A stretch of DNA of 63,898 nucleotides, the filler included, from Psammoneis japonica (Eukaryota): NCBI GenBank assembly GCA_008632985.1. It is 3 parts of 3 records of this genome, joined end to end, with 100 filler letters (N's around TTAATTAATTAA, not from the genome) between each part and the next. Parts side by side here need not be neighbours in the genome. Positions count along the whole stretch, not along the records: positions 1 to 25,087 come from QPGO01000427.1; positions 25,188 to 49,361 come from QPGO01000431.1; positions 49,462 to 63,898 come from QPGO01000496.1. One strand, written 5' to 3'. The notes under the pieces were generated by a model. It saw only the letters and a program-made list of their open reading frames with translations. It was not told the DNA's origin and searched no databases. Positions within the stretch are counted from its first letter, which is position 1. Each line of letters starts with the position of its first letter. Position numbers and translations under genes: made by a program. Positions 10,870 through 63,898 of the stretch are shown here, piece by piece.

Positions 10870-12410
10870 AACAGCGCGCGGCTTCAGACAACCAGCCCCT
10901 GACTTGCTTCACTTGCGGCTGGAACATGTCTTTGTTTTGTCTCACTTGCAGGTTCCAACAGTGGCGAGGCTGCCACACACATGGGCCACAGCATTCATTT
11001 CAGCCAGAAACTTTTTGAGCTCAACAAAATGTGTGCCGCACAGACAAGAACTTTTCCCTGCTTCCTTCAAATTTGTCCTCCTCCTCATCAAAGTCATCTT
11101 TGAAATGCTGCTCAAAATGGGTTGGAGGCAGCTGTTTCATCAAATGCAAGTCATCCGCCATGTGCATCTCCTTTTTGTTGGGCAAGAGGATGGTGTGACA
11201 GGGAAGCAGCTTGTCATCAAAATGCACCTTGAGAATCTTTCCTCATGGGAAGAGCTTTCCTGACTCATCTTTGAAAATTGCTGCTTTTGTTCTTGTTTGT
11301 GCCCCTGGAGTCAAGCAACTTGATCACAGCCTCCAGCCCTTCCTGAAACAGCCTCCATTGCAAGACTTGAGCATCTGTGGAGCAAAATGTGCCAGAAAGC
11401 CAGAGATGCAGCAAGCCTTGCGTCAAGTCCCTGAGCCAGTGCAGCGACAATTTTTCCAGACTTGCCTTTGAGAGCTGCAGTTTGTCCTTGCCCCTTGTCT
11501 GCAATTGGAGTTGAGCAATTTAATTGTCGCCTCCAGTCCCTTCCAGAAATGGCCTTTGTTGCAACACTTGAGTGTCCACAGAGCAAAGCGCCAGAAAACC
11601 ACCAGAGAGACGAGCTGACAGACCACAACACCAGCAACCTTCTTGTCAGTGGTGCAAAAACAACTTCTCCAATGTCAACACTGGCCAGTGAGGCCAAAGG
11701 GTCTTCCTTGGATCCAGTGCTGCATGCACTCCCTTTGACTGTGTTGAGCACTTTCTTTCAAAAAGGAGTTTGACAATTGCTTCCATGACAGGAGTTGTTT
11801 TTCCGCCACCACCTGTGCTGTGAACTCCATCAATGTGCTCAACTGCGGAAGAAGACAGTGGTTTTTTTCATTGTCCCAATGAGATTTTGCTGTGGATTGA
11901 TGCTTGCTCCCAAAATGATGTCAACCAAAGACAGAAGTGCGCAGCTGTGTTCTTGGTTGCAAGATGGGATGTGAAAAAAATGTGCAAAGCCCTCTGCACA
12001 TTGATGCCAGTTGCACAGCTGCAACAGAAGGCAGCAAACATTTGAGCAAACTGAAACAGGGAAAACCAGAAGAACTTGACATCCTCTTCTTCACAGCAGT
12101 CATGGCTGTCAACCAACACTGGCTCCTGCATCAAGGTGGGGCAACAATGCAAGAGTGCTGTTGGATGTTGTGGACATGATTGTCAAAGTGCAAAACGTGG
12201 ATGACAACATCACACAAGGAAGTTGTTCACTTGCCATTCTTGTCCAGCTCTTTGGAAACACCCAAGGAAAGAGGTCAAAAACATGGCAACGGAAAAAGTG
12301 AGCACACAGATTTTGGCACCCCCCAACAATTGTTGGTTGTTGCAGATTTGGGGGGTGGACCCATGCTTTCAAAAAGCAATTGAGTCTCAATGCAGCCACT
12401 TCATTGAGTG
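10870..12410 (-). pseudogene. TpA/CpG-depleted block with a ~195-bp internal duplication, possibly a degraded ankyrin-repeat gene
   Basis: Segments ~11310-11405 and ~11510-11600 are similar. Translations QEGLEAVIKLLDSRGTNKN and KGLEATIKLLNSN resemble the ankyrin G-x-LE-x-VKLL-xx-GA-x-xN pattern. Confidence 0.35.
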
Positions 12411-12737
12411 AATCAATTGTGAGCCCTTGTGCGAGCAAAGTGTGGGTCAGTGAAAACCGTGTTGAGACGCAGATTCGCAGATGGTTTGCGGAGATGACTC
12501 TTTCCGCTTTCCGCACCACACCCAAACTCAGACGGGACTGAAATACCCCCCCTAACAGCATTATCGAGTCCCAGCAACTGTGATCTTGGGGACGGACAGA
12601 CTCGACAGGCCTCCGCATTCTTCCAACTCGCTTCCAACTTGGAACTCGACATTTTTTCTTCCCTCGGCATGAGAGGCACGAGTTGATTGCTGCCATTTTC
12701 ATTGCTCATTGACTTTTGCAGCCCTTGTCACAACAAC

Positions 12738-13387
12738 ATGACAGATATTGAATCGGTTCCTCGTCGTCGTCGTCAAGGACGAACTGCAGCTGCACCAAGC
12801 AACGTCGACAATGATTCTCCGCCTACGCGCGACTTGCTTCCACCACGGCATCCGCTCAACGTTATGAAACGATGTGCCATTATCTTTGGGTGTTTGTATT
12901 TGTTGCATTTTCATTTTGAATTGCAAGACGTCGTATTAAATTCCTCTAGGATTCGACACGGTTGGTTAAAGCTGGGACTTGCGACTAGTGTTGGTAAGAA
13001 AAGAAATCAAACTTATGGATGATATATTCCTACTCTCCTCCTACTTACACGTCATCACTCTTTTTCCAACTCGTTCGTTAAACCAACAACGACAACACAG
13101 CCATTCTTGCCATCAAGAGCTATGTCGAAACCTTTGCTTCCAAGCAAAAAAAGGTTGTCTATGACAATTTCAAGTCGACAACCCACGCCGTCATTCTCCT
13201 GCTGTTCTTTTCTGGGATTTGCTTCACGTTGGCACTCTGTGACGAGTACGGCTTTTTCAAGTCTTGTGTGATTCTCAATCTCATTTTGTTTGGAATTATA
13301 CTCTAAGTGGCCTTATTTCTCCCTAATTCAATTCAGAACTTGATTGGAGCTATTGTGTTGACGTGGATGCTTCAAATGTACATCTAA
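12738..13387 (+). CDS. Small multi-pass membrane protein, TMEM128-like; exons 12738-12993 and 13101-13387; in-frame TAA at 13304-13306
   Basis: GTAAGA donor at 12994 and CAG acceptor at 13100. Exon 2 reads AILAIKSYVETF...THAVILLLFFSGICFTLAL...GIIL*VALFLPNSIQNLIGAIVLTWMLQMYI*, with several hydrophobic helices. Confidence 0.6.
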
Positions 13388-13559
13388 TGAGCAGAGTATG
13401 GAAATCGCGTAGAGGGGAGTGGGACACCATAAACTCTTGGTAAAGTACAGCAAGCAAATATCGTTATATGCTACCATTCTGTCTGTTTCTTTGGTCTCAT
13501 CTCGATCATGCACAATAAAGAAATCGAGCAATGACAATGAAGGGTCGTCGTACCGCTTC

Positions 13560-15617: not shown

Positions 15618-16184
15618 GGAAGCAAATCCGGGTAATTATGGCGATTTCACACGTAGAAAAGACGTAGAAACCTACTTAGTGCATCGCCCAAAGTGCACAC
15701 GCGTAGAAGCTACGCAAGTTTTACCGCCATAAACACCCAATGTTTGCATGTCAGCTTCGATAAGAACGGTTGAACTTGGCGCATGCCCTCACCCCACTTC
15801 TGGATTCGATGGTGTGCGATGCCGATCTCATCTGGGACTGGGCCAAGGACCGCCTTGCCAAGAACCACTGAGAAGCAACTCGGCATTAGAGCGCTTGGAA
15901 GTCTCATAGAGCAGAGTTTTTGGCAACACTCTACTCCGCACTGGGGGGGGGGGGTGGGTGAACCCACACCCTCCGCAGGGTCTCGAGTGAAACTCGAGGG
16001 CTCGAGGTTTGGTTCATCGGACCACACTCCGGGCGCTTCCGAACAAACCTGGTGGGGGGCACCTTCGGCATTGCGCGACGTCGGCACCCCAAACTGAGGG
16101 ATTCTCGAACTCGGAATAGAAGAGGACGCCAGACACCATTTGTTTGCCTTCGCAGTTGGGCGTCATTGCGGACATGCTGGGACC

Positions 16185-16975
16185 GACGCGCTCCAGCTCC
16201 AGGTGGGACCTCGCACTGCTGCACTGTGACATCAATGGTTTTTTGGATCGCGTCGTGTGTCGCGCACATGCATTTCTACGTGCAAAATTCTACGAAATTG
16301 TTTCACACTTCCTGTTTTGCGAAGCCAACGTGTTCCAGGTCCAGGTGGGACCTCGCACTGCTGAACTGTGACATCGACAGTTTTTTGAGTCTCGTCGTAT
16401 GTCGCGCACATAGATTTCTACGTGATTTTTTCGACATTTTGTGTCATTTTACGGTGCACTCATTGAGCGATCCATCCAACAACTTTTGACATTTTTTGTT
16501 GCAGCGCGATTCTATGATGTCTTAAGAATCGCGCAGGGCAGGCGAAGTTGCAAAAACGTCAAGTGGTGAGAGGCATAATTGCACCACAAACTTGGGCATT
16601 TATTTGATGTTGAAGACAAATGCATCCATTGATTAAATTCTCGCACTACGGAGCTCGCACGCAGAATTCTGCGGGCCCAATGTCACACGGAGTCCCACCC
16701 AGGGCTGGAACGCGTCAGCCAAAGGCTTTCCATTTTCAACATTTGTGAGAATGACAATGCGCTGGGTGCATTCTTTAATGTCTGAAGAACACACCCGGGC
16801 AAACTGTCAATGATGTGCTCCAAGTGTGAAGGAAGAGATGCGTTCGTAAAATTGCCTCTTTTTCTGTTGGTGATCACTCACATTTTCATTGCAGCACAAA
16901 TTTGCTACGGAGCTCGCACGCAGAATTCTGCGGGCCCAATGTCACACGGAGTCCCACCCAGGACTGGAACCCGTC
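16185..16975 (+). mobile_element. MITE family 1, subfamily A, TSD GACC; contains a nested copy
   Basis: Ends GACGCGCTCCAGCTCCAGGTGGGAC and GTCCCACCCAGGACTGGAACCCGTC. The empty site is visible in the paralogous repeat at ~17670. Confidence 0.9.
16327..16716 (+). mobile_element. MITE family 1, subfamily B, nested in a subfamily A copy, TSD AGCC
   Basis: Same TIRs; AGCC at 16323-16326 and 16717-16720. Confidence 0.9.
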
Positions 16976-17829
16976 GACCGAAAGAAACCGATCTAGACTT
17001 CATCGATGGACTCCCGCGGTCTGATTGACAAAGGTGAGCACAAATCCAGGGAGTGGTGGGTGGGCAGCAAAAATGGCTTTTCCAATGCTTTGGCATGGTC
17101 CAGTCACGTTGATCAGGGTTCCTGTCTCAACAAAGATGGAAAAGTGAGAAACAGGATGCCGGCAAGTTTGACCGGTCACAGAAACCGGTCATCTTGGCCC
17201 AGAGGCACCCTCCTCTGGGAGAGGCACATGTCGATGGTCTGACCAGATGAGAGGTCTTGCTTCGCACGGTTCGTCTCCATCCAAACTTGGGTGCGAAGAG
17301 GATTCGATGGTGTGCGATGCCGATCTCATCTGGGACTGGGCCAAGGACTGCCTTGCCAAGAACCACTGAGAAGCAACTCGGCATTAGAGCACTTGGAAGT
17401 CTCGTGGAGCAGAGTTTTCGGCAACACTCTGCTCCGTGCCAGGGGGGTTGGGCAAACCCATGCCCTCCACAGGGTCTCGAGCAAAACTCGAGGGCTCGAG
17501 GATTGGTTCATCGGACCATGCTCCGGGCGCTTCCGAACGAACCTGGTGGGGGGCACCTTCGGCATTGCGTGACGTCAGTGCCCCGAACCAAGGGATTCTC
17601 GAACTCGGAATGGAAGAGGACGCCAGACGCCATTTGTTTGCCTTCGTAGTTGGGCGTTGTCGCGGACATGGGACCGAAAGAAACCGATCTAGACTTTGGC
17701 GATAGACTCCCGCGGTCTGATCGACAAAGGTGAGCACAAATCCCCCCCGATGAGAACTCCCAGGCAGTGGCCACCCGCAGAGACTAGCTCGCACCAAACA
17801 CACCCTGAGGGTGTGATCGAGCCGGTCTT

Positions 17830-19700
17830 ACATTTCCTGAGTGCATCTCAAGAAGCAAGGGAGGAGGAGAGAGATGTCTGCGCAGTGTTGCCTCATCTTA
17901 TGAGACGGCCTCATCCCTCCAGCTCGATCCTTCTTTTTCCACCGATTCACCACGTCAATGTCGTCCTCCGACACATTTCGAGTGATGGCTCTAGAGACGT
18001 GTTCCAGCTCTAGGTGGGACCTCGCACTGCTGAACTGTGACATAATTATTTTTTATCATCCGTCGCATGTTTCGCACGTGCATTTCTACGTGTTCCATTA
18101 TAAAAAATTGTTCCACACTGCCTGTTTTGCGAAGCCAAAGGCTTTCTGTCATCTGCACTTGTGTCAATAAAAATGCGCTGGGTGCATTCTTTAATGTCTA
18201 AAGAACACACCCGGGCATGCTGCAAAGAATGTACTTCAAGTGTGGAGGAGGAGATACGTTCGCAAAATTGCCTCTTTTTCTGTTGGCGATCATTCATACA
18301 TCCATTGCTTGACAATTTTACTACGGAGCTCGCACGTAGAATTCTACGGGCCCAATGTCACAAAAAGTCCCACCTGGGACTGGAACCCGTCTAGAATCCG
18401 ACCCGCGCCGGAAAGACCTGCTGACATCGTGCTTGTCCTCAATGTCCGAATGAGAGGTGATGTCTGCCCCAAAGAGGGACGGGTGGTCGTCAAAAAGCTC
18501 TGAGAGGGAGAGGTGAAAAAGCACATTTGGGTCATGAGAGGACAAGACCTTTCCACTGTCATCCGACATGGCTGGTCCTCGAGTGCGACCCCTTGAAGCT
18601 TGAAAGGTCACAACTGCCTGGACCCACTGTTGAAGGCGAACACCTGATCCCGCGACGTTTGCACTCGGAAGCAGGTGTTGGCACTCCCCGTGTTCTCCCT
18701 TCACTCGACCGAGAAGCGGGATCACCACGTGGGATTGATGGAGAGGCAGGTGTTCCCGCATGGTGCCCAGATCCATGAGCAAGCCTTCGGGCCCACGGAG
18801 GGACAACGTGAAACTTGCCGCGAAGTGCAGGCCGCCAGTCAAGTGCCTGAGGCAATCCCCGGCTGCGGTGGCCCGGTTGAACTTTTCTTCGATCCTGGGC
18901 AGAAGGTGTTGCATGATCTGCGCCGAGATGGCCCTGTCTGGTCTCCAATCTTGCCCCATGCGCCTTTTGCAACCTGTCACAAACCTTTGGAACCAGAGGG
19001 AAGCGCAAGGGTCCTTGCAAATGCGGAGATGTTGTTTGCCCTCAAGGTCGGCAAGAGCCAAGGCTCGCGAGTTTGCAGAAGCCGAAGATCTCACCTGATT
19101 CGAGTGGGCAGTGCGCAACTTCCTGACAGTGTCGAACTGGGTGCACGCGTCAGAGCAGCGGCCCGGGGACGTCGAGGCCAAGACCATCTGCATCGCCGCC
19201 TCATGTCCACAATGATCAAAAGACGGCAGAGGTCCTGGCTCCAAGTGAGGTCCTTGGAGTCCTGAACGCTCTGAGAGAACCAAACCCCGGGTGACTTTGG
19301 ATGCATTGTTCTCTGCCGTGGAGGTCTCTCCACTCCAGAAGGCGTCCAGGTTCACCCGCCTGATGCAAGCCAACGCCACCTCGTTGCGTGGTGAGGTGGG
19401 GAAGGGGTCTCTCTGGCACAGCTTGTGGAAGATGCACCCATCGCACTCGAAAGCCACCATCAGATGGTCCCCGGTTCGCGCGCGTGTGAACTTGTCCTTG
19501 TCCTGTGGCTTCCAAAACCAGGTGTTGTCCTCGATCCGAGCGGCGTCCTCACCGGGAAGGTCCTCGTCGTTGTTTCATTGGTCGAGGTGGAGGATCCCCC
19601 CCAGGTGGAACATCACGTTTTTGCTTGAAGTGTGGCACCCGGGACACCACGCCTTTCGGCACGCGGGCCAGCCCCCGACACTGTGAACAAAATTTGCGCA
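17830..19700 (-). pseudogene. Tyrosine recombinase of the YR retrotransposon, split by a MITE
   Basis: LSLRGPEGL (box I R-x-x-E), IPLLGRVKGE, and SRSFRRGSDSR|AITRNVSEDDIDVVNRW (box II) once MITE 17996-18391 is removed. Upstream CRKAWCPGC and FECDGC Cys motifs. Confidence 0.85.
17996..18391 (+). mobile_element. MITE family 1, subfamily A, TSD TAGA, inserted in the recombinase gene
   Basis: TIRs present; removal restores GSDSRAI. This copy retains many TpA. Confidence 0.92.
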
Positions 19701-21869: not shown

Positions 21870-22208
21870 CCGCTGGATCTCATTGGACGTGCCGCGGATG
21901 CGTTGCCGCCGTCTGTTCCGCGGGAGGGTGGTCTGGACAAAGATCGGAATGCCGTCGTGTGGGCCCCATCCCGCTGCTCAGGAGAGGGCCAGTGCCAGAA
22001 GAAAAGTGAGGACCCCGGGTCCCAACTCCATCAATCAAGACCTCTGTTCCCAAGTTGGCGTCCAACAACAGGGAGGGAAGTGGTGGGTCCCGGTGCAAAC
22101 CCCCCTGCAGACTCGCAACAGAGTCCCCAAACCGTCGCCGAAGTTGTGCAAGATGGACCATCCACCCTGGACCACAACCCCGACGCAGGAAACTCAAGAG
22201 CGACCGCG

Positions 22209-23276: not shown

Positions 23277-23304
23277 TCACCTGTGGTTCGCCCCCCGCCT
23301 GGCT

Positions 23305-53236: not shown

Positions 53237-54401
53237 TTCAGCAATTTTTGGCCACCGTGGTTTTGTGCCTTTTGCCATTTTGGACCCTTTCTGATTTTTT
53301 GCCCTTGGCAGCTTTGTGCCCTCAGCCACCATTTTGCACCCTCAGTCATTTTGTGACCTCAGCAATTTTGTGCCCCTGCCTGGTTTGTGCCCTTTGTGAT
53401 TTGGTGCCCTCAACAGACATTTTTTGTCCTTTTTGATTTTGTGCCCTTGGCCATTTTGCTGGTCACGACAGAGCTGCAGAACAACAAGAACCTGCCCAAC
53501 AAAGAACACGGGGCAAAGAAGAGAAAGTGCGTGAGGTGCCTGAAGCACTTCACGGCAGGGAGCTCCAAGAATGGAGATGCGGAAGGGAGTGCACCCAGGA
53601 AACGCAAGAGGGAGGATTTTTGCAGGAAGATTGTGGCAGAGTGTGACAGGAAAGTGGAGGAGGGGGGCAACGGGTTGGGGGATGAGGAAAGCCACGTGGC
53701 GGGTTGCACTGAGACACATGAGCTGGAGCCAACACCTGTTTGGCAGACAATGTGTGAAAAGTGGCAGTCACGTTTGTTGCAAATGACGTTGCAGGCACAA
53801 TCTAAATTGAACGACTGCACTCCAATGTGCCAGCCGGAGAGCAGCTGGGGAAGGGCACAACACAAGTGGCGCTTTGGGAAGCCAGTCAACCGATCTGTTG
53901 TCAGTCAGTTGTCGAATGTGTTTGAGTGGGTGCACCGGAGTTTTTGGCCCGCTCACTTTCTGCGTGGCCTGGAACAGCCCAAATCTGTGCAGACTCAGCG
54001 CACTTCGCCCTGCAGAACAGTTTTTGGGAGTGTTTTCTGGCTCACGGCTCAAAATGACATGCAAAACAGCACGAACAATGGTGTTTTGCCAAACCAAAAA
54101 ATGTGATCATCTCTGAGGTCGGTGCCTGGATGCTCTCAATGGAGTTCGGCACATTGCATCATCTTCTGCGAGACAAGGTCGAGAACACCCAGGTTCACGC
54201 AGGTGGATCATGGTGAAAATTCTTGCTGAAGGCTCGCATTGACAACGTCGCTTCTGTTGCATCACGACCAACCTTGTGCATTGCCATTCATGCTGTGTGT
54301 TTTGTCGGGGCTTTGCGCGCTTGTGGCCATTTGGCTCACGTGCGATTTCTCTTTCTGCGCTGCTCTTTTGTTCTGCAGGGTCTCCGTTGTCGCGAGGCGT
54401 C

Positions 54402-55276
54402 TGACAGAATTTGAAGAAGAGTTGGATGCTGGCACGTCACTCTCTGGCTGAAACACATCCAGCTGCTGTGTGCAAAAAGCCTCTCGACTTGAGCTGCGCA
54501 GCAAATGGTCCAGCTGGCAACCGGCTGCTTGATGACCTGGGCTCGAATCCTGGGCATCGCATTTTTCAAGTCGTTGGGTTGGATTTGGTCGAGTTGGTCA
54601 ATCTTGATCAAATCCTGTCATGGCGCGATTCTCAGAGTGATGCGCGCATCTCTCTGTCTCAAAAACGGGGCATGCCTGCCTTGGGGGGACAGCATTGTCG
54701 GGAAGCCCCCGCAAAGCCGTTGGGGCAGAATGGGGTGTTGCCGGTGTGCAGAGGGCAGCCGCTCAGCATGCTTTGAACGAGGGGGGCGCGAAAAATTGCC
54801 CAGGGAGTTTGGAATCTGTCAGCGATGCAGTCGACATCGGCGTGCTGTGGGGAGTGCCATGCACTGCAGCAAGAGTCCATGTTTGAGCCCTGTCTTCGAC
54901 TCTGGCATCGAAGATGTGGGTGGGTCCCTTGACAGCAGCGGAGCTTTGTGAGAGGAGTGATTCAACCTGCCCGTCCAAATGATCCTGGGTGACTTAGAAA
55001 CCTTGTGGGGGCGATTCAGGGACAGCCACATCAGACAGATTTGCGACACATGGGGAGTGACAGAATTCGAAGAAGAGTTGAATGCCGGCATGTCACTCTC
55101 TGGCTGAAACACATCCAGTTGCTGTGTGCAAAAAGCCTCTCGACTTGAACTGCATGGTGAATGGTTTGGTTGGCAACCGGTCACTTGATGACCTGGGTTC
55201 AAATCCTGGGTGTCGCATTTTTCAAGTCGTTGGGTCGGATTTGGTCGAGTTGGTCAATCTTGATTAAATCCTGTCA
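54402..55276 (+). mobile_element. TRIM (miniature non-autonomous LTR retrotransposon)
   Basis: Two 219-bp LTRs (54402-54620 and 55058-55276), each TGACAG...CTGTCA. PBS-like TGGCGCG follows LTR1; PPT TGGGGAG precedes LTR2; 5-bp TSD GCGTC/GTGTC. Confidence 0.9.
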
Positions 55277-57189
55277 GTGTCCCAGAGACACTTTTTCTTG
55301 TCAAGAATGTCGCCTCTGAAGTGCGATGGCCACGGCAATTCAATGACAAAGCCAAGTCACAAACACAGCATCAGGAAGAGTTCACAACAAACATGGTGAC
55401 TTGGAGCCATGATGTCTTAAGCTGGGTGAGCTCTCAAGAGCTCAAACACATCATCGCGCAGTTTTGACAACATTTCTCCCCCACTGTCCATGGTGATGCT
55501 GAGTTTGATTTGGCAGACCAGTGCATCATGGTAATTCTAAAGGCAAAAGATTGCTTCTTTTGGCTGCAAGGCAGTTTGCAACCTGGAAACATGTGACTCA
55601 TTTGCACTGTTTGTCAGCCAGCGCAACAACGTCAGAGCGCAAATTGCAGCGATCCTGACCACCCTTCTCACAGGCAATTTTTGCTGCCATCACAGGCACA
55701 AATGTCAAGGCTTCAATCCTTGACAGTTGTGCGGACCGTGATTTTTTGTCACATGGCACAGCGTGCAATTTTTCACCATGGGAACCCACCTTTTCCCATG
55801 GGATCCAACCCTTGACTGTCAGAATGCCGTCCCTTTTTACCTTTTCAATGCAAAATTCAAAATGTTTGGTTTGATGACAAGTCAATGCTGATCATTGCAT
55901 TTCATGGGTTCAAGGAACCTTCCATTGTGAACACTGGTTGTCAAATGAAAGTTTGGATCATGCAACAATGACCATCAAAATGCTTCGTCAAACCCCGCAA
56001 CTGTTTGCATTGAACACTGATGCGTTGCTCACCCGCTCTCCATTCTCACACCAACAAAAGCCTCTGCTGCATTTTCGTGCCGCAGCTTGCTCATCATCTG
56101 CATCTGCGCTCGTTTCGCTTCCCTCATTGCTTTCTTCATCCTCTTCCTTGCTGTCCTTGTCTCCTCTGTTCTTGTCCGTTGCCTCTTCCTCCTTCTCCTT
56201 GTTGTCGCTTGAAAGCTCTGTCATTGTCTGTGTTCTTGCCTCCTTCCCCGCTGGCTTTTTCTTTCTTTTTGATCCCTTTCCTCTTTCGTCACTCTTCCTT
56301 TTCTTGCCTTCGCTGCACCATGTGTCGAGCTGCATGCCCTCCTTGCTCAACCTGTCTTTCTTTGCTTCCGCGAGCAGTTCATTGAATCGCAACGTCCCTG
56401 CATCCTTCCACAAGTCTTGTTGCCTTGACAGGTCCATGTGCTTGGGTGTTGGTTCCGACTCTTCCTCATCCTCTTCGTCTGAGCCCCCCCAGCTCCAACA
56501 GTCTTGTCATGACGGGCCTTGTGCTCCCAACTCTTCCAGCAGTTTTCCAGCATCAACAGCCCCAGAGCCTTGTCGCTTGCTGTGGCCAGACCGGCTGCCT
56601 TCTGCCCCATGCATGCACCAGGCAGTGAAAAAGAAGATGTGTTGCGACTTTGTGTTGTGAAAAATTGTGAGCCAGTTTAGAGCAGAGAAAGTGGGATCGT
56701 GCGAACAGGGAATCTTGCTAAATCCCTGTTTGCTCGCATTTGGATCGCATCAAATCAATCGTGCGTTCGCATCATGGATCGTGTGAATCAAGCCATCATG
56801 CAGTGTGCACAAGTGATGTCATCGTGTGGAATCACGCCACCATTGTGGGCCAGACGATGGGCTGGTGTGCTTCACACGGGTGCTCTCTTGGCATCCTTCT
56901 GGAATTGCCTGAGACCCAGAGCCACGCCCTCCTGTGGTCATGCTTCCCAGGCACGCATTGACAACACTGCGTTGCCATGTGCAAGAGGCTCATGCACGGT
57001 CTCGCCGTGTTGTCCAGCAGCGAGGCACACTGCACACTCCCCCATGATCAGGGCCGTCAAGTGACAGGATGTCTCGCTGGTGACAGGGTGCAATCTGCTG
57101 CAGGTTGTGCGCATCTGTCAGTGCTCCGTTCTGGGTGCGCAACGTGCCGTTGTCACATGCACCGACAACTCTGGCGGGTCCTGCACAGC

Positions 57190-60100
57190 TGTCAGAACTG
57201 CATTTAGAGGATTGTTCCTGTGAAATCTGTTCTCATGGGGGTGTGGGTGGCTCCACATTTGCAAATGGTTGTGGACATGACTGCTTCCATCCATGGAAGT
57301 CGAAGGGCAAGCATCCCGATGCAACTGCATCGTTCATGCACGACACAGGCGTTCCAACGGAAATTGCATTGGACGGTGCTCCTGAGCTGACTGATGGCCG
57401 CACAAAGGAAATTTGTGAGGAGTGCCGGATCAAACAAGGGGTTGCTGTTCCTTGCAGTCCGTGGCAGAACTTGGCCGAAGCCTCCATTCGTGAGCTGAAG
57501 AAGAAAATGTGGATTGCAACAAGGCGCGCGAATGCGCCAAAACGCTGCTGGTCCTGCTGTGCCAAGTGGGGCCATGGCTGTCAGGAGGCTCGCAGCCTCT
57601 GAGCATCCGGAAATGGATGGGAAAGTCCCCAAAGAGGACATCACGGGTTCAACACCAGACGTCTCAGCTCATGCCCTCTTTGACTGGCGCCAGCCGGTGC
57701 ACTTTGTGATGCCTCAGGCAAAATTTCCCTTTGAAAGGAAGTGCATCGGGCGCTGGTCAGGTGTTGCAGAAAACTGAGCAGATGACATGGCATTTGTGAT
57801 CCCACCTGAATCAGGCACACCCATCATTCGGAAGGATGTGTGGGCTCTGCCTGAGGATGACTTGAAGACTGATGCGATTTGGCAAAAGATTGAGCATCTC
57901 AATGCCAGTCTGAAACTCAGGCCAGGGGATGGTCAGGAAGGGAATGACAAGTTCCCAGAACCACCCAAAGACCCATTTGGCAAGGAAGATGCCAATGCAG
58001 AGCCGTTCGAAGAAGATGCAACTCATCCGGAAGCAGATGAGTTCACGCCGGAGGCAATGGATGAGCGTCTGGCAGTGGAACTCAGGCTCTCACGAGCTGG
58101 TGAGCTGCAGCATGCAAAAGTTGTTGCCAGGAAGCGCGGCACGGATGGAAATCCGACAGGGAAGTGGCACAAAAAGCCTGTCCTGGATTCACGGCTTTGT
58201 GAGGCAGAGTTCCCAGACAGATCTGCCGACACGTTCACAGCCAATTTAACTGCTGAGAACATCTGCTCCCAGGTTGATGGGGAGGGACGATCTTGCCAAA
58301 TTGTCAAAGAGATTGCAGGTCACCAAAGTGATGCATGCGCAGTGCACAAAGATGACGGTTTCTTTGTCACAAAGAGTGGCACGTGCAGGCCCCGCCGAAC
58401 GATGATCGGCTGGGACACACAGTTTGAGTGGAAAGATGGAAGCTCTAGTTGGCTCCCTTTGTCAGAGGCAAAAGAATCGTTCCCTGTCCAAGTCGCGGAG
58501 CGTGCTGTTGCAAATGAGATGGCTGGTGAGCCAGCGTTCAACTGGTGGGTTCGAGACATGTTGCATTGTCATGCCAGGATGGTCATGAAAGTCAAGACCA
58601 GGTGCTGGAAGTGCACTCACAAGTTCGGTGTCGAGTTGCCAAAATCCGTGGAGCAGGCTTTGATGCTGGACGAACAGTCTGGGCTTGACCTGTGGGGAAA
58701 TGCAATTGAGAATGAGATGCGCAATGCAATGCCAGCCTTCGAATTTGTCGATGATGACCAGATGGGACACAAGGAAATTAAGTGCCACTTGGTGTTTGAC
58801 ATCAAGTTGGACTTGAACAGGAAAGCGCAACACGTGGCTGGAGGCCACACGACAGCAGCTCTGAATGACTTGGAAGTCATGTGTGCCAACGTTCAGAATG
58901 CTCGTCTGAATGCACCAATGAAAGAGTGCTGTTGCACAATTGCTGGCCTGGAATTTGGCAAGCAGAATGTTGGTCGACCCGTTAAAATTGTCAGGGCCCT
59001 GTGCGGGCTGAAGAGTTCCGGCGCTGCTTTTAGGGAACATGTGGCAGCAATGCCAAGGCTCATGGGATTCACCTGTGGCAAGGGCGATTCCGATGTGTGG
59101 ATGCACAAGAATGCTAAGCTGGGTGGCTTCAAGTGCTGGGAATGCGTGCTTGCACATGCAGATGACCTGCTGGTTGTCTTGCACGAACCCCAGAAGTTCA
59201 TGGATTACACGGCTTTGAGACATGTGCTAAAAGAGGGAAGTGTCAAGGAACCGGAAGAGCACCTGGGTGCCGAAGTGAAGAAGTTCCAACCATCTGACTC
59301 GGATGGCAAAACACGTTGAGCCCTTTCATCTGACTTGTGTGTCAAGCGGGCCACTGCCAACATTGAGTTTGAACTCGGCCGTGCAGGCCGGGGACTCAAA
59401 AAGAGAGTCACAACGCCATTGAGTTTGGGGCATCACCCTGAACTTGACACTGCGCCTGAGCTGGATGCCCGAAGGGTGACTTGTTTCCAGGGACTCATTG
59501 GCATTTTGTGTTGGGTGGTGGAACTGGGGCGCACTGACATTGCAGCGCCAGTCTCTCTTCTGTCTTCTTGCTTGGCAGCGCCAAGGGTTGGGCACCTGGA
59601 TGAGGTGTTTCACATCTTTGCCTGTTTGAAGGCACATGCCAGGTCAGCGATGGTGTTCGATGACACGGAACTGACCTTCAATCAACCACGTTTTCAGGAA
59701 TGTGACTGGTCGGAACACCATCCTGGGGCAGCCGAAGCTGTCCCTCATGATGCCCCTGAGGCCAGAGGGAACAGTGTCGCTGCTGCATGTTTCGTCGACG
59801 TGGATCATGCTGGTTGTCGAGTGATGTGCCGATCCCATTCTAGGATCATTGCATTCATGCAACGGGCCCCAATCTTGTGGTGCTCCAAGCGGCAGAACAC
59901 TGTGGAATCCTCAACTTTTGGGTTGGAATTCGTTGCGATGAAGATTGCCGTGGAGCAGATCGAGGCCTTTTGACACAAGCTTCGCATGATGGGTGCTCCC
60001 ATCGATGGCTCCGCCAACGTCTTCTGCGACAATGAGGCCATGTTTAAGAACTCAATGCGGCCCGAGTCAACACTCAAAAAGAAGCACAGTGCCATTGCTT

Positions 60101-60389
60101 GTCACCGGATGCGTGAGGCGCAGGCTGCTGGCATTGTGCGCATTGCTTGGGAGGATGGCGAGACGAATCTCACTGACGTTCTCACCAAGTTGATGCCCGG
60201 ACCGAGGCTCCGGGAGTCAATTCATCACATTTTTTGTGGTGAGTGTGATTCCAGTGGCGGGCAAAACACCCGAGCCCAATGCAGTTGTGGCACCACTGAT
60301 TGCTTCGTCTTGCAGACGAACCGGGATTTTCCGTTTGCAAAATGGGGATGGTTTTGCCCATCCCGAGACATGGTTTTTTTTCAATTGGC
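57190..60389 (+). mobile_element. Copia (CoDi-type) pol region: integrase, RT, RNase H; degenerate and truncated
   Basis: PCSPWQNLAEASIRELK (integrase); CHLVFDIKLD, ALCGLKSSG, VLAHADDLL (RT); LWCSKRQNTVESSTFG and KKKHSAIACHRMREA (RNase H). Confidence 0.9.
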
Positions 60390-60779
60390 GATGCGTTCCA
60401 GGTCTAGGTGGGACCTCGCACTGCTGAACTGTGACATCGACAGTTTTTTGAATCACGTCGTATGTCGCGCACATAGATTTCTACGTGATTTTTTCGACAT
60501 TTTGTGTCATTTTACGGCACACTTGTTGAGCGATCCGTCCAACAACTTTTGACATTTTTTGTTACAGCGCGATTCTACAATGTCTTAAGAATCGCGCAGG
60601 GCAGGCGCATTTGCAAAAACGTCGAGTGGCAAGAGGCACAATTGTGCCACAAACTTGGCAGTTTGTTTGATGTTGAAGACAAACACATGCACCAATTTAA
60701 TTCTCGCACTACGGAGCTCGCACGTAGAATTCTGCGGGCCCAATGTCACACGGAGTCCCACCTGGGACTGGAACCCATT
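60390..60779 (+). mobile_element. MITE family 1, subfamily B, TSD TGGC
   Basis: TIRs present; TGGC on both flanks. Confidence 0.92.
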
Positions 60780-60949
60780 TGGCCTGGAAAGGGCCAGCAA
60801 CGCAGATGCACAGGGTCGAATTGATCCTGCCGAAGCTGGCGTCCATTCAAGGGGACTGAGTGAGTGCAGTCACACTGTCGCTGAACATGGCATTTGGCAA
60901 AGACCATCACTGTCGCTGACACAGAGGGTGGCACAGAACAGCCTTGCAA

Positions 60950-61520
60950 TTTTCTGGGAACCTGTTGATTGCCGCACCAACATTTTCTGTCGCATCTTGT
61001 CAAATTCCCAGAGACTGCAGCGTGAATTGCTCATTGCAATGGTGCCAGTGCCCCTCACTGCCAGACACCAGGCTTCGCGGATGCTTGACTTGAACATTGG
61101 TCGAGCCATGGCCAACCAGCTGCGCAGTCTGTTGGTCAAACAAGTGAGGTGCTCCTCCACTGAACTGAGCAACTTGGATCAATTGCAAGCTGAACAATTG
61201 TCTGCCTTGGAGTGGATGGCTCATGCTTCTGCCTTGGCGTCACGGTGCTGTGAGGACTTTCTTGTGCCCAAATTGTGCCCATGTGCAGTGTCATCATGGA
61301 GTGTTCCCGCCATTGGGGCCACACAAAACTGCCAGTCGCAGTGGCCCAATCTGAGTGCTTTTCCATGTTCAACAAGGAGCGGCACAATCCAGTTGACAGC
61401 AAGCATGATGGCTGAGCTTTGTTCCACAAAGACGAGAAGCGCCCATTAAAAATCTGTCTCCAACCAATGTTGTCTTGAGCTTGAAACACCGCCACAGCAC
61501 TTTGATGGACATTTGCTGAA
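60950..61520 (-). mobile_element. 3' remnant of a non-LTR retrotransposon (LINE, Ambal-like C-terminus)
   Basis: AQDNIGWRQIFNGRFSSLWNKAQ...WATA..SFVW..W matches the Q-x-x-IGW-x-x-x-x-GR-x-S-x-x-W motif of diatom LINE ORF2 C-termini. Confidence 0.55.
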
Positions 61521-61600
61521 CACAACACCTTGTCGTGAAACCAACACACAAAAAACATTGTCATGTTGACAGACAAGATGTCATGTGCCAAAGATTCAGA

Positions 61601-62060
61601 AACAAACCCCAACCCCAAACCCAACCCCAAACCCAAGCCTGGCCCTTTTTGCATTTTTGCATTTCCACATTTCCGTGTTTTCGTGTTTTTCTGCTTTCCC
61701 GCATTTCTGCATTTCTGCATTCTGCATTTTTTCATTTCCACATTTCCACATTTCTGCATTTTTGCATTTCCGCATTTCTGCGTTTGGGCATTTTCGCATT
61801 TCCTCATTTTTGCATTTCCGCACCTCCGCACCTCTGCACTTCCGCATTTCCACACTTCCACATTTCCGCATTTCCGCATTTCCGCATTTTTGCATTTCCA
61901 CATTTCCGCATTTCCGCATTTCTGCATTTCCGCATTTTTGCATTTTTGCATTTTCGCATTTCCGCATTTTGCGTTTCCGCATTTTTGCATTTTTGCACTT
62001 CTGCGTTCGCGCATTTGCACATTTGTGCATTTGCACTTTTGTGCATTTGCGCATTTCCAT
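61601..62060. repeat. Short (AACCCC/AAACCC)n telomere-like tract followed by a degenerate (TTTCCGCA)n microsatellite
   Basis: AAACCCCAACCCCAAACCCAACCCCAAACCCAA at ~61604-61636; 8-bp periodic tract at 61645-62060. Confidence 0.8.
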
Positions 62061-62699
62061 GCACTGAAGGGGCACAGCCCGCTGGCAAGGGTGCTGGTCA
62101 AACAAGATTTGTGGTGCAAGTGTTTGGGGCTGGGGGCACTGGAGCAAAGCCAACGGGGCAACTGCCACAATTGCCTTGGGAAAGCAGAGCAGGGTTTGTT
62201 GCTTCAAACAACACATGTGTTTGGGCAGAATGGAGTGCAGCGCCGGTGGTGTGGATGGCAACACAAGGGAAGGAGATGAGGAGGCATGCGCCCACAAAAA
62301 TGGAGCTGATGTGGAGCGGACACATCGGCAACAAAAGAGACATCACCTGCAGCTGTGGATTGAAGAACACTCGTGATGAAACCAGGTCAAGCAAAATGGC
62401 TTCTGTGGCACGTCAACAAAAGCGTGCATGGCGCGGGAATGGCATGTTGGGGGAGAGAGGTTGACATGCTCACCCAACATGCTGTGACCCCCAATGTGCA
62501 GAGCCGAGGATGAGCGCATCATGGGGGACAAATGGGCTTCCCCATGGTGCAGAAACTGATTTCACCGATTTGTCCCCTCGCGCGCCGCATCTTGGCTTTT
62601 TTGTAAAATGCAATGACGACAACGTGAGGGCAACTGTGACAACAACTTGAGTCACAAGGGTGACACAACTGCTGTCGCTGCCACCGCCATTTTTCCATT

Positions 62700-63898
62700 C
62701 ATGATTTTGTGCCCTTGACCACTTTGCGCCCTTTTGATTTTGTGCCAATGGCACCTTTTTGCTCTCCTGGTTTTTGCCGTTGGCCACTTTGTGCCCTTGT
62801 GCCTTTGTGACTTTTGCACTGTCCTTGGCCAATTTGTGCCCTTTGCAACTTTGTGCCCTCAGCTGCCACCATGCACTCTCGCTCCGTTCAGTGATTTTTT
62901 TTGTGCCCCAGGAAAGTTTGTGCCCTTTGTGTTTTTGTGCCCTCAACTCCCATTTTTTGTCATTTTTTGTTTTGTGCCCTTGGCCATTTTGCACCTTTGA
63001 GATTTTGTGCGCATTTTTGCATTTTCGCGTTTTTGCATTTTTGCATTTTTGCGTTTTCGCATTTTCGCATTTTCGCACCCTCGCTTGCATTTTCACATTT
63101 TTGCTCGCATTTTTGCACTCTCGCATTTGGCGCTGGGGGCACCTTTGAGATTTTGTGCCCTCAGCCATGTTGCGCAATTCTTGATTTTGTGCCCTTGACC
63201 TTTTTGTGCCCTTGGCTGCTTTGTGCCCTTTTCTTTTTTTGTGCCCTTGAGCACTTTGCCCTGTCTCGTGGTTTTGTGCCCTTGGCCATTTTGCGCCCTT
63301 TGTGACTTTGNCTTGACGCGTTCCAGCTCCAGGTGGGACCTTGCACTGCTGAGCTGTGGCATCGACAGTTTTTTGGATCGCACCGCGTGTCGCGCACGTG
63401 GAATTGTGCGAGACTTTTGTGAAATTTTGCATCATTTTGTGGCACACTCATTGAGCAATCCGTCCAACAACTTTTGACATTTTTTGTTGCAGCGCGATTC
63501 TACAATGTCTTGAGAATCGCGCAGGGCAGGCACATTTGCAAAAATGTCAAGTGGCAAGAGGCACAATTGCACCACAAACTTGGCTGTTTGTTTGATGTTG
63601 AAGACAAACATGTCCGCCAACTAAATTCTCGTGCTGCAAAGCTCGCACGCAGAACTCTGCGGGCCCAATGTCGCACGGAGTCCCACCCAGGACTGGATCC
63701 CGTCCCTTTGCCATTTTGTGCCTTTTTTGGTTTTGGGCCCTCAGCCGCATTTGGTGCCCCCAATGATTTTGTGCCTTCAGCAATTTTTGGCCATTGTGGT
63801 TTTGTGCCTTTTGCCATTTTGGACCCTTTCTGATTTTTGCCCTTGGCAGCTTGTGCCCTCAGCCACCACATTTTTGCGCCCTCCAGTCATTTTTGTGC
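62700..63898. repeat. Further partial copy of the TTTGTGCCC macrosatellite
   Basis: 63000-63898 is colinear with 50700-51520, including the same MITE insertion. Confidence 0.9.
63315..63704 (+). mobile_element. MITE family 1, subfamily B, TSD (C)CTT, same insertion point as 50962
   Basis: Identical flanking sequence. Confidence 0.9.

What the first reader, a model, noticed from the sequence alone, without database searches (positions are those of the whole stretch)
10870..63898. Candidate repeat-directed adenine hypermutation system (TpA to TpG/CpA, a 'reverse RIP')
Seen: the blocks ~10.9-12.4, 15.8-28.4, 30.4-37.2 and 42.2-63.9 kb have almost no TA dinucleotides, while gene islands have plenty. 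Conserved Tyr residues become Cys (TAY to TGY) or His (TAY to CAY) within the same element: ALYGLKSSG to ALCGLKSSG, YVDD to HADD, LWYSKRQ to LWCSKRQ, IAYH to IACH, PYSPDLNPIE to PCFLDLNLIE. The 510-aa copia ORF 57787-59319 has one Tyr. Both change types mean A-to-G on both strands, and DNA transposons and gene-derived pseudogenes are hit as well as retroelements, so the process appears to act on DNA. Established: fungal RIP goes the other way (CpA to TpA), and 5mC decay does not remove TpA. Inference: a genome-defence mutator such as a TadA/ADAT-like DNA adenine deaminase, deamination of a modified adenine, or Pol eta-type error-prone repair recruited to methylated heterochromatin. I know of no description of such a system in diatoms.
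Basis: partly seen in the sequence, partly recalled or inferred. Interest (0 to 1): 0.93.

Follow-up and report, generated by a model that had tools for sequence, protein, structure and literature searches.

The report
TpA-erasing mutation of diatom transposons
In this piece of a diatom genome the transposon-filled stretches have had almost every TA step rewritten to TG or CA, a DNA-level mutation process so far reported only once, in an unrelated alga, and whose enzyme is still unknown.

Summary
Four blocks totalling 42.7 kb hold 214 TpA where about 1,640 are expected from the neighbouring gene islands (O/E 0.085 against 0.66). Borders are sharp, TA-free runs reach 1.85 kb, and TpG/CpA are in matching excess.

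- **Polarity:** in three retroelement polyproteins, 3 of 41 Tyr positions conserved in public relatives are still Tyr. 22 are Cys (TGY), 10 His (CAY), 4 Arg (CGY) and 2 Phe. Other conserved residues are kept at 761 of 906.
- **Native composition:** all 80 related copia loci from other samples have normal TpA (0.44-1.03).
- **DNA level:** a 390-bp element with terminal inverted repeats and 6-bp target duplications has copies with 11, 10, 8, 2 and 0 TA. Both strands are hit, without strand-coordinated runs.
- **Context:** ATAT and GTAC are erased; TTAA is nearly immune.
- **Reads:** read-derived contigs reproduce the sequence.
- **Host:** named gene and transposon relatives are all diatoms.

A 2026 preprint measured the same TpA-to-TpG/CpA signature in the chlorarachniophyte Bigelowiella natans. 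My searches found no report for diatoms. 'Repeat-directed' is not supported, and the enzyme is untested.

The parts
10870..12544 (.). TA-poor block 1: 1 TpA in 1,675 nt, CpG also low (O/E 0.24). Content not identified.
   Evidence: no Pfam hit; no terminal repeats found
15800..28499 (.). TA-poor block 2 (TpA O/E 0.13). It holds a retroelement, repeat units F385 and F400b, one F390 copy and a CpG-poor tail (25.2-28.5 kb).
30400..37250 (.). TA-poor block 3 (TpA O/E 0.047, CpG O/E 0.15). Read depth is about that of single-copy sequence.
42200..63898 (.). TA-poor block 4 (TpA O/E 0.086, CpG O/E 0.63). It runs off the end of the window.
57075..60237 (+). Copia-like polyprotein remnant with three in-frame TGA stops. 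At 20 conserved Tyr codons: Cys 9, His 7, Arg 4, Tyr 0.
43241..45053 (-). Second copia-like RT/RNase H region (RVT_2), a very high-copy family. At 16 conserved Tyr codons: Tyr 2, Cys 9, His 3, Phe 2.
19621..23195 (-). Third retroelement polyprotein. It matches 1,240-1,270-aa public proteins; one of four relatives scanned gave a weak RVT_1 hit. At 5 conserved Tyr codons: Cys 4, Tyr 1.
18324..19574 (-). ORF with language-model resemblance to tyrosine recombinases. This would make the neighbouring retroelement DIRS-like. It is a lead only.
36055..36225 (-). DDE_3 (IS630/Tc1-type) transposase fragment carrying PCFLDLNLIE. The hit is weak and below the Pfam cut-off.
   Evidence: (E 1.5e-4, 22 bits against cut-off 28.6)
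16328..16716 (+). F390 TIR element, copy 1 (10 TA). It is inserted in an F400b repeat, with 6-bp target duplication AGCCAA. The empty paralogous site is at 18133-18138.
50965..51357 (+). F390 copy 2 (0 TA)
52848..53236 (-). F390 copy 3 (8 TA), target duplication CTGAAG
60390..60776 (+). F390 copy 4 (11 TA), lying just behind the copia remnant
63315..63704 (+). F390 copy 5 (2 TA)
29012..30292 (-). Control: sulfotransferase-like host gene in a TA-normal island. All its named relatives are diatoms.
39407..40790 (.). Control: G+C-rich coding tandem array (periods 60/96/156) in a gene island. It keeps TpA (O/E about 0.9).
25088..25187 (.). Artificial scaffold linker N44-TTAATTAATTAA-N44. A second one lies at 49362-49461. 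Together they supply 6 TAs that are not genomic.

Best explanation
A mutator acts on chromosomal double-stranded DNA of silenced mobile elements in this diatom. It converts the dinucleotide TpA to TpG or CpA, and sometimes both base pairs to CpG. Host gene islands only a few bases away are left untouched.

The process works element by element. Younger insertions are only partly converted and older ones are saturated. It hits both strands independently. It prefers 5'-T-A-Y-3' (TAT > TAC > TAG) and almost ignores TAA, so TTAA survives. It outpaces ordinary CpG decay in the same elements.

What is shown here: the signature, its polarity, its action on DNA, its context preference and its confinement to mobile elements.

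What is inferred: the chemistry. My best guess, at about 0.4, is enzymatic deamination of adenine to hypoxanthine, which pairs with C, by a TadA/ADAT2-type deaminase recruited to silent chromatin. The CpG products would arise when both adenines of one TpA are hit and the opposing T is repaired before replication.

I put the phenomenon itself at about 0.9.
For: Size of the deficit:
- 214 TpA observed against 1,644 expected, with sharp borders.
- Mass balance, by my arithmetic: the deficits of TpA (about 1,430) and CpG (about 1,200) compare with an excess of TpG + CpA of about 2,300.

Polarity:
- Conserved Tyr codons in three elements: 3 of 41 are still Tyr, 22 TGY, 10 CAY, 4 CGY, 2 TTY. Other conserved residues are kept at 761 of 906.
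- An independent MAFFT alignment of the first element gives 0 of 21 Tyr kept.
- All 120 homologues of the first element have 2.9-4.5% Tyr, against 0.1% in the window's copy.

Not native to the family:
- All 80 related copia loci have TpA O/E 0.44-1.03 and keep 78-100% of conserved Tyr.

Acts on DNA, after insertion:
- F390 has 24-nt terminal inverted repeats (21 of 24 match), 6-bp target duplications and an empty paralogous site. Its five copies carry 10, 0, 8, 11 and 2 TA.
- At 13 sites some copies read TA where others read TG, CA or CG. At 15 further sites copies read TG against CA.
- A DDE_3 fragment is affected as well.

Both strands, no long single-strand tracts:
- Runs tests of TG/CA order give z from -2.1 to +1.8 in six blocks, like the islands.

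Context:
- Block/island frequency ratios are ATAT 0 (0 against 120, strand-symmetrised), GTAC 0.035 and TTAA 0.45.
- An additive per-strand model gives R2 0.88.

Not an artefact:
- Contigs built from a run at about 50-70x word depth cover 29.6-41.6 kb. One example is a 2,777-nt contig over 34643-37419 with 10 differing letters.

Precedent:
- In B. natans mutation-accumulation lines, 230 of 231 new mutations in two viral inserts were A>G or T>C, all at TpA.
Against: - Everything comes from one 64-kb window. No genome is held, so neither genome-wide extent nor any candidate enzyme could be examined.
- No de novo event was observed here. Activity today is only suggested by the partly converted copies.
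- The run that reproduces the sequence may be the sample the assembly was made from. It rules out an assembly error but is not independent biological replication.
- None of the 80 related loci from other samples shows the signature. Only 2 of 120 public homologues of the second element (P0250, P0240) show a partial one. It may therefore be confined to few lineages. That search was also biased: one of its two patterns contains a Tyr, and only the best 80 of 489 loci were kept.
- Copies also differ by many ordinary changes: 256 non-YpR transitions and 266 transversions in pairwise counts.
- CGY products appear in only one of the three elements (4 of 20, 0 of 14, 0 of 4 changed sites).
- Nothing in the sequence separates a lesion on A from a lesion on the paired T.
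Confidence: 0.7

Rival explanations
1. The phenomenon is the same, but the lesion is made by error-prone patch repair. Frequent repair in methylated, silenced DNA, for example after 5mC deamination, recruits a Pol eta-like polymerase. That polymerase misinserts G opposite T at TpA.
For: The TA-poor blocks are also the CpG-depleted ones (CpG O/E 0.15-0.66 against 0.98), so the two processes share a territory. From recalled knowledge: Pol eta in antibody hypermutation makes A>G changes at WA motifs, TA more than AA. Repaired CpG lesions could restore the CpG while damaging nearby TpA, which would explain why TpA loss outruns CpG loss.
Against: ApA is not depleted at all (O/E 1.25 in blocks, 1.13 in islands), although WA includes AA. 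TAA is the most resistant context. Conversion of both base pairs of one TpA to CpG (4 of 20 Tyr codons, against 0 of 11 His, 0 of 4 Cys and 0 of 16 Trp codons turned to Arg) is not what one-strand resynthesis predicts. Other contigs with strong CpG decay keep normal TpA: L043 has CpG 0.13 and TpA 0.47; L029 has 0.19 and 0.53.
Confidence: 0.1
2. The phenomenon is the same, but the modified base is the thymine of TpA. One example would be oxidation by a TET/JBP-type dioxygenase to 5-hydroxymethyl- or 5-formyluracil in silent chromatin. The modified base then mispairs with G and gives T>C.
For: TpA is its own complement, so T>C at R-T-A is indistinguishable in sequence from A>G at T-A-Y (one search shows only that the neighbour next to the mutated pair matters, not which base carries the lesion). 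A thymine dioxygenase that makes 5hmU and silences transposons is reported for dinoflagellates (PMC11572971; I saw the search listing and the start of the abstract only). The mutagenicity of 5-formyluracil is recalled, not checked.
Against: No evidence here that diatoms carry such a base or enzyme. The B. natans authors propose deamination, but they did not test either chemistry.
Confidence: 0.1
3. Editing happens outside the chromosome, on transposon RNA or cDNA during retrotransposition (ADAR- or APOBEC-style). The mutated copies are then inserted.
For: Borders coincide with element ends (for example 18392), as expected if elements arrive already mutated. Three of the affected elements are retroelements.
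Against: A TIR element with target duplications, and a DDE_3 transposase remnant, have no RNA or cDNA stage and are affected too. Both strands are hit about equally within single copies (first element Cys 9, His 7), with no strand-coordinated runs. Erasure is near total, and nested or younger elements are only partly converted.
Confidence: 0.04
4. The TA-poor sequence is an artefact of sequencing, polishing or assembly.
For: The window is a scaffold with artificial linkers. Systematic base-calling errors at modified bases are known for some platforms (recalled).
Against: Read-derived contigs at about 50-70x word depth reproduce the blocks almost letter for letter. The changes respect element borders, differ between copies of one family and leave neighbouring genes untouched. 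Two public proteins from other sources show the same Tyr-to-Cys/His pattern.
Confidence: 0.02
5. The elements are natively TpA-poor, through their own composition or selection against TA, for example against stop codons or nuclease sites.
For: TpA is mildly under-represented everywhere (island O/E 0.66).
Against: All 80 related loci have TpA 0.44-1.03. Catalytically conserved Tyr are replaced (YVDD to HADD). Pfam recognises only 1 of 69 long ORFs. Copies of one family range from 0 to 11 TA.
Confidence: 0.02

Closest known systems
TpA hypermutation of integrated giant-virus and virophage DNA in Bigelowiella natans (Mettrop et al., bioRxiv 10.64898/2026.01.13.699255; I read the abstract, Results and Discussion)
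   Same: The signature is identical: A>G and T>C only at TpA, giving TpG and CpA, on foreign or mobile DNA, with host sequence at a normal rate. That paper also reports 324 low-TpA coding sequences enriched in reverse transcriptase and DDE domains. An ADAT2-like deaminase is proposed there too, also untested.
   Different: A different lineage (diatom against chlorarachniophyte). Here the targets are transposons and erasure is near complete (O/E 0.01-0.13, against 0.45 for the viral insert there). Here I add a flank rule (TAT > TAC > TAG >> TAA, TTAA spared), TpA-to-CpG double products and co-located CpG decay. The words 'flanking', 'trinucleotide', 'CpG' and 'diatom' do not occur in that text. 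There the rate was measured directly; here nothing was measured over time.
Fungal repeat-induced point mutation (RIP)
   Same: A genome defence that ruins mobile elements by dense transitions at one dinucleotide in chromosomal DNA, with fairly sharp borders.
   Different: The direction is opposite: RIP turns CpA into TpA and enriches TpA. RIP is triggered by duplication as such, whereas here tandem repeats inside gene islands are spared. RIP depends on the DNMT-like RID before meiosis, which is not testable here. Diatoms do carry RID-related DNMT4 (PMC9998398, passages read), but a C5-methyltransferase fold gives no route to A:T>G:C.
CpG decay by deamination of 5-methylcytosine in methylated transposons
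   Same: It yields the same products (TpG/CpA) and is present in these blocks (CpG O/E 0.15-0.66; Arg to His/Cys/Gln and Thr to Met changes).
   Different: It cannot remove TpA. Other contigs show strong CpG decay with normal TpA (L043, L029). Blocks 2 and 4 have lost nearly all TpA but keep about two thirds of their CpG.
APOBEC3 / ADAR editing of retroelements and viruses
   Same: Deaminase-driven hypermutation of selfish elements. According to the preprint's Discussion, ADAR also favours U before the edited A.
   Different: Those act on single-stranded cDNA or on RNA, mark one strand and touch only elements with such stages. Here DNA transposons are hit, on both strands, with no strand-coordinated runs.
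TadA/ADAT2 tRNA adenosine deaminases and TadA-derived adenine base editors
   Same: From recalled knowledge, their natural substrate context is U-A-C in the anticodon loop, which fits the preferred T-A-Y. They give the same A-to-I(G) outcome.
   Different: No natural enzyme of this family is known to me that edits chromosomal double-stranded DNA at scale. No such gene could be looked for here.

Membership tests
B. natans-type TpA hypermutation of foreign DNA | Substitutions are A:T>G:C and fall on TpA | tested here: met
   Of 41 conserved Tyr positions, 38 are no longer Tyr: 22 TGY, 10 CAY, 4 CGY and 2 TTY (the TTY codons are not this type). TpA O/E is 0.085, while ApA and ApT are not depleted.
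B. natans-type TpA hypermutation of foreign DNA | Both products, TpG and CpA, occur (either strand) | tested here: met
   TpG O/E 1.54 and CpA 1.64. Cys 22 against His 10 at Tyr codons. 15 TG/CA mixed sites in the F390 family. No strand runs.
B. natans-type TpA hypermutation of foreign DNA | Confined to integrated foreign or mobile DNA, with host sequence spared | tested here: met
   Sharp borders. Islands carrying the sulfotransferase-like and TMEM128-like genes have TpA O/E 0.56-0.69.
B. natans-type TpA hypermutation of foreign DNA | Measured de novo rate about 1000-fold above background, active only in some lines | not testable with these tools
   Needs mutation-accumulation or strain resequencing. 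Only one sample's contigs could be laid.
Fungal RIP | C>T at CpA, leaving TpA enriched and CpA/TpG depleted | tested here: not met
   The opposite is seen: TpA 0.085, CpA 1.64, TpG 1.54.
Fungal RIP | Triggered by sequence duplication as such | tested here: not met
   The tandem array 39407-40790 and the duplicate 37715-38287 in gene islands keep TpA and show an ordinary spectrum. The erased block 30.4-37.2 kb is at about single-copy depth today.
5mC-driven CpG decay as sole cause | Only CpG is lost; TpA is unaffected | tested here: not met
   TpA is lost more completely than CpG. Contigs with CpG decay alone exist.
RNA/cDNA-stage editing (ADAR/APOBEC type) | Restricted to elements with an RNA or cDNA stage, with one-strand bias | tested here: not met
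   The TIR element F390 with target duplications, and a DDE_3 remnant, are affected. Cys 9 and His 7 within one element. Runs-test z within -2.1 to +1.8.
Pol eta WA-motif mutagenesis | A>G at both TA and AA | tested here: not met
   ApA O/E is 1.25 in blocks against 1.13 in islands. The motif definition is recalled, not looked up.
TadA/ADAT2-type deaminase as the agent | A CDA-fold deaminase gene (HxE, PCxxC) with nuclear or chromatin targeting in this genome | not testable with these tools
   No genome is held for the window, and none lies in the window (Pfam scans).

The most novel reading that the evidence does not exclude
Diatoms, and with B. natans perhaps much of the SAR supergroup, possess a natural, chromatin-guided editor of double-stranded chromosomal DNA. 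It deaminates adenine at 5'-T-A-B-3' on both strands of silenced mobile elements. This would be a genome defence that is the mirror image of fungal RIP and a natural counterpart of engineered adenine base editors. Its near-total erasure of TAA/TAG stops and Tyr codons would also explain why old diatom transposons escape domain searches and yield long spurious ORFs.
Probability: 0.35. Interest if true: 0.92.

Novelty: new member of a known kind. Interest (0 to 1): 0.78.

Why it matters
If it holds genome-wide, four things follow.
- A second, far-removed algal lineage carries the TpA-specific A:T>G:C hypermutation that one 2026 preprint found by experiment. That would point to a widespread and so far overlooked eukaryotic genome defence.
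- Diatoms, for which (from recalled knowledge) genetic tools and mutation-accumulation protocols exist, become a system in which the unknown enzyme can be hunted. A natural editor of adenine in double-stranded DNA would interest base-editing work.
- The flank rule (TTAA spared, RTAY erased) and the TpA-to-CpG double products are concrete constraints that any candidate enzyme must reproduce.
- There is a practical consequence. Hypermutated elements lose Tyr codons and two of the three stop codons (24.6 against 37.0 stops per 1,000 triplets). Only 1 of 69 long ORFs was recognised by Pfam, and gene finders will call false long ORFs in such regions.

Tried and rejected
- **Whole genome:** not held. 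No genome-wide TpA scan, no family consensi and no deaminase or polymerase search were possible.
- **RNA evidence:** no RNA holder listed.
- **LTR-pair test** for post-insertion change: not feasible. I found no clean pair of direct terminal repeats for either copia remnant. The flanking 400-bp repeats are inverted and interrupted by scaffold linkers.
- **Polarised spectrum from singleton differences** in repeat families: too few consensus TA left (30 opportunities). CA>CG 'singletons' may be retained ancestral CpG. Not used.
- **Which neighbour steers the product**: the model with the neighbour next to the mutated pair (logL -18.6) beats the far-side model (-25.0), but barely beats no effect (-19.4). 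It is a hint only.
- **Pfam** on 137 short ORFs inside blocks 1-3 and 126 in the islands: no hit passing a Pfam cut-off in the blocks, and only TMEM128 in the islands.
- **Language-model look-alikes** gave leads (tyrosine recombinase, RVT_1). Only the RT lead was followed up by homology.
- **Names for the Tyr-poor public homologues** P0250 and P0240: none on record.
- **Earlier scan notes:** none for this genome or sequence. The word search returned only phage findings that do not bear on this.
- **Terminal repeats for block 1:** none found.
- **tRNA genes:** none in the window.
- **GC-biased gene conversion:** considered and rejected. A and T outside TpA are kept (ApA 1.25, TpT 1.32, ApT 0.88).
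They might show flank context or double hits there.

Full report
**Observation**

The window splits cleanly into TA-normal islands and TA-poor blocks.
- Per-kb TpA O/E is 0.45-0.92 in 1-10.9, 12.5-15.8, 28.5-30.4 and 37.3-42.2 kb. It is 0.00-0.32 elsewhere.
- Two scaffold linkers (N44-TTAATTAATTAA-N44 at 25088-25187 and 49362-49461) supply six artificial TAs. With these masked, the four blocks (42,724 called bases) hold 214 TpA, O/E 0.085. The islands (20,973 bases) hold 933, O/E 0.657. At the island ratio, 1,644 would be expected in the blocks.
- The longest TA-free run is 1,852 bp.
- Borders are abrupt. TA counts in the 500 bp on either side are 22/0 at 10870, 0/19 at 12544, 1/28 at 28499 and 19/1 at 18392.
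- TpG (1.54) and CpA (1.64) are in excess. ApA, TpT and ApT are not depleted.
- By my arithmetic, the missing TpA (about 1,430) plus the missing CpG (about 1,200) roughly equal the surplus TpG + CpA (about 2,300).
- CpG loss is a second, separable axis. It is severe in 10.9-12.5, 25.2-28.5 and 30.4-37.3 kb (O/E 0.15-0.24) but mild in 15.8-25 and 42.2-63.9 kb (about 0.63-0.66), although TpA is gone in all of them.

**Is the sequence real?**

No genome is held for the window. One public run of the same coded organism holds 88% of the sampled words of 28-38 kb.
- Its read-derived contigs, at about 50-70x word depth, cover the TA-poor block almost letter for letter. One 2,777-nt contig lies over 34643-37419 with 10 differing letters and 2 gaps.
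- The listed differences in that block are mostly CpG against TpG/CpA, plus one adjacent CA/TG pair.
- This run may be the assembly's own source. It excludes an assembly or polishing artefact but is not independent replication.
- The 42-48 kb element has summed depths of 2,000-77,000, so it belongs to a very abundant family. Most laid contigs (2,845 of 4,955) are 90-95% alike. By my estimate, that is about the divergence expected if copies resolved their TpA sites independently.

**Host**

The sulfotransferase-like gene at 29012-30292 (-) has 42 relatives. The four that carry an organism name are all diatoms: Amphora coffeaeformis, Conticribra weissflogii and Fragilariopsis cylindrus. The named relatives of the second copia element are Cylindrotheca fusiformis and C. 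closterium. No identical protein is in the collection. I take the host to be a diatom.

**What the blocks contain**

Pfam recognises almost nothing: 1 of 69 ORFs of at least 170 aa (RVT_2 at 43261-44385 -) and none of 137 shorter ORFs above a cut-off. Homology searches are more telling.
- 57075-60237 (+) aligns to 1,370-aa copia-type polyproteins at 56% identity.
- 43241-45053 (-) aligns to another copia family at 57-65%.
- 19621-23195 (-) aligns over the full length of 1,240-1,270-aa proteins with a weak RVT_1 signal. The neighbouring ORF 18324-19574 (-) resembles tyrosine recombinases by language-model features only.
- A 57-aa fragment at 36055-36225 (-) gives a weak DDE_3 match (E 1.5e-4, below cut-off).
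- A 390-bp family, F390, has five copies. It has 24-nt terminal inverted repeats (21 of 24 match) and 6-bp target duplications (AGCCAA, CTGAAG). One copy interrupts a repeat whose uninterrupted paralogue shows the empty site. F390 is therefore a small DNA transposon.

**Polarity**

For each retroelement I took the columns where at least 80% (70% for the third element) of the public relatives agree, and read the window's codon.

| Element | Conserved Tyr sites | Tyr | Cys (TGY) | His (CAY) | Arg (CGY) | Phe | Other conserved residues kept |
|---|---|---|---|---|---|---|---|
| First | 20 | 0 | 9 | 7 | 4 | 0 | 321 of 382 |
| Second | 16 | 2 | 9 | 3 | 0 | 2 | 241 of 286 |
| Third | 5 | 1 | 4 | 0 | 0 | 0 | 199 of 238 |
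| Total | 41 | 3 | 22 | 10 | 4 | 2 | 761 of 906 |

- A separate MAFFT alignment of the first element gave 0 of 21 Tyr kept.
- The relatives are not Tyr-poor. All 120 of the first set have 2.9-4.5% Tyr, against 0.1% in the window's copy.
- The 80 best related copia loci fetched from metagenome and WGS contigs have TpA O/E 0.44-1.03 (median 0.71), and each keeps 78-100% of the conserved Tyr.
- That fetch was biased towards unmutated copies. One of its two search patterns contains Tyr, and only 80 of 489 loci were kept. It still shows that the family is natively TA-normal.
- The direction is therefore TAY to TGY, CAY or CGY. Thr-to-Met and Arg-to-His/Cys/Gln changes show ordinary CpG decay alongside.

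**It acts on DNA, after insertion, on both strands**

- The five F390 copies carry 10, 0, 8, 11 and 2 TA.
- At 13 sites some copies read TA where others read TG, CA or CG. One site shows CA, TG and TA in three copies, which only an ancestral TA explains by single steps. At 15 more sites copies read TG against CA.
- Across all repeat families in the blocks, pairwise differences include 130 adjacent TG/CA doubles, 108 TA/TG or TA/CA and 241 CpG-type. They also include 256 other transitions and 266 transversions. A tandem duplicate in a gene island shows mostly the latter two classes.
- Residual TAs cluster in particular elements: the F390 copies, the repeat at 17.3-18.4 kb, and 48.3-49.0 kb. The border at 18392 is an element junction. 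Conversion therefore goes element by element, consistent with age since insertion.
- TG and CA products are interleaved. Runs tests give z from -2.1 to +1.8 in six blocks, no different from the islands. This argues against long single-strand tracts, and so against cDNA- or RNA-stage editing.

**Context**

Loss depends on the flanks.

| Context (strand-symmetrised) | Blocks | Islands | Block/island frequency ratio |
|---|---|---|---|
| ATAT | 0 | 120 | 0 |
| ATAC/GTAT | 8 | 104 | 0.032 |
| GTAC | 14 | 166 | 0.035 |
| CTAG | 34 | 70 | 0.20 |
| TTAA | 84 | 78 | 0.45 |

- The island baseline excludes the tandem-repeat gene.
- In the oldest, CpG-poor blocks ATAT, GTAC, ATAC and CTAG are all zero, while TTAA stays at 0.54 of the island frequency.
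- A model in which each strand contributes independently, according to the base 3' of its A, fits with R2 0.88. The loss exponents are TAT 2.7, TAC 1.4, TAG 0.7 and TAA 0.5 (0.84 with the cruder baseline).
- Product choice at Tyr codons favours the neighbour adjacent to the mutated pair over the far-side neighbour, but barely beats no effect.
- The Arg (CGY) products are not two independent steps. None of 11 conserved His, 4 Cys or 16 Trp codons in the same element turned to Arg. Both base pairs of one TpA seem to have been converted together. This was seen in one element only.

**Trigger**

'Repeat-directed' is not supported.
- A 1.3-kb coding tandem array (39407-40790) and a 284-bp tandem duplicate lie in islands and keep their TpA.
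- Block 30.4-37.2 kb is at about single-copy depth today.
- In B. natans the main target is single-copy.
- Co-location with CpG decay suggests that the common denominator is silent, methylated chromatin. This is inference.

**Mechanism**

Shown: the signature, polarity, DNA level, strand symmetry, context and confinement. Inferred: the chemistry.
- I favour adenine deamination to hypoxanthine by a TadA/ADAT2-type enzyme, at about 0.4. The outcome is A to G. The preferred T-A-Y matches the recalled U-A-C context of tRNA A34 editing. Double products follow if both adenines of a TpA are hit and the T opposite each is repaired before replication.
- Rivals are Pol eta-like patch repair and thymine modification by a TET/JBP-type enzyme. 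Intact ApA and the resistance of TAA count against the first. The second cannot be told apart by sequence.

**What is known**

A 2026 preprint on Bigelowiella natans reports 230 of 231 new mutations in two integrated viral regions as A>G or T>C, all at TpA. The rate was about 6e-7 per site per generation, in only some lines. It also reports 324 low-TpA coding sequences enriched in RT and DDE domains, and proposes an ADAT2 homologue. Its text mentions neither diatoms, CpG nor flank context.

Eight full-text searches found no description in diatoms. Word look-ups for hypermutation, dinucleotide and RIP terms in two diatom transposon papers found none, and the passages on RIP and DNMT4 that I read in a paper on diatom DNA methyltransferases describe no such mutation pattern. 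Two of the 120 public relatives of the second element (P0250: Tyr 4, Cys 6, His 4, Phe 2; P0240: Tyr 8, His 5, Phe 2, at 16 conserved Tyr columns, with 93% of other columns kept) carry the same mark. Both are unnamed.

**Verdict**

The interpretation as a DNA-level TpA-to-TpG/CpA mutator aimed at mobile elements is supported. 'Repeat-directed', 'pseudogenes' and the enzyme are not established. It is a new member, in a new lineage and in a much more extreme state, of a kind first described in 2026.

Noticed in passing
25088-25187 and 49362-49461: The gaps are artificial contig joiners: 44 N, then TTAATTAATTAA (stops in all six frames), then 44 N. Adjacency across them is scaffold inference. Their six TAs inflate TTAA counts unless masked.
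   Followed up: yes
38030-40960 (-), array 39407-40790: A 977-codon open frame over a G+C-rich tandem array (periods 36/60/96/156, 77-79% matches), with no Pfam family. It looks like a repetitive low-complexity protein gene. It keeps normal TpA and was useful as a control.
   Followed up: partly
52341-52587 and 61651-62058: Octamer microsatellites inside the TA-poor block: CGCATTTT x31 (97% matches) and TTTCCGCA x47. They share a repeat unit in different register and are related to each other by BLAST.
   Followed up: no
proteins P0250 (ENA) and P0240 (NCBI), relatives of 43261-44385 (-): Two public copia proteins from other sources have lost conserved Tyr to Cys/His (4 and 8 of 16 kept) while keeping 93% of other conserved residues. 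They are possible further carriers of the same process.
   Followed up: partly
42008-45342: Summed contig depth reaches 9,000-77,000 against about 60 for single-copy sequence, so this element and its flanking 400-bp repeat are among the most abundant sequences of the genome.
   Followed up: no
42528-42922 (+), 48991-49203 (-) and 49483-49875 (-): The copia-like RT region is flanked by inverted, not direct, copies of a 400-bp repeat. The same repeat abuts the retroelement at 17996-18391. The true structure of these elements is unclear (inverted terminal repeats of a DIRS-like element, or nested insertions).
   Followed up: partly
13082-13303 (+): A TMEM128-family exon (E 1.4e-6, above the Pfam cut-off) in a TA-normal island. 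It is the only other recognisable host gene fragment besides the sulfotransferase-like gene.
   Followed up: no
blocks against islands, all six frames: Erasure of TAA and TAG leaves TGA as almost the only stop (1,807 TGA against 305 TAA + TAG), giving 24.6 against 37.0 stops per 1,000 triplets. Long open frames therefore appear on both strands of dead elements and could mislead gene prediction.
   Followed up: yes
loci L043 and L029 (metagenome contigs): Related copia loci with strong CpG depletion (O/E 0.13 and 0.19) but ordinary TpA (0.47 and 0.53). This shows that methylation-type decay occurs without the TpA process in other organisms.
   Followed up: partly
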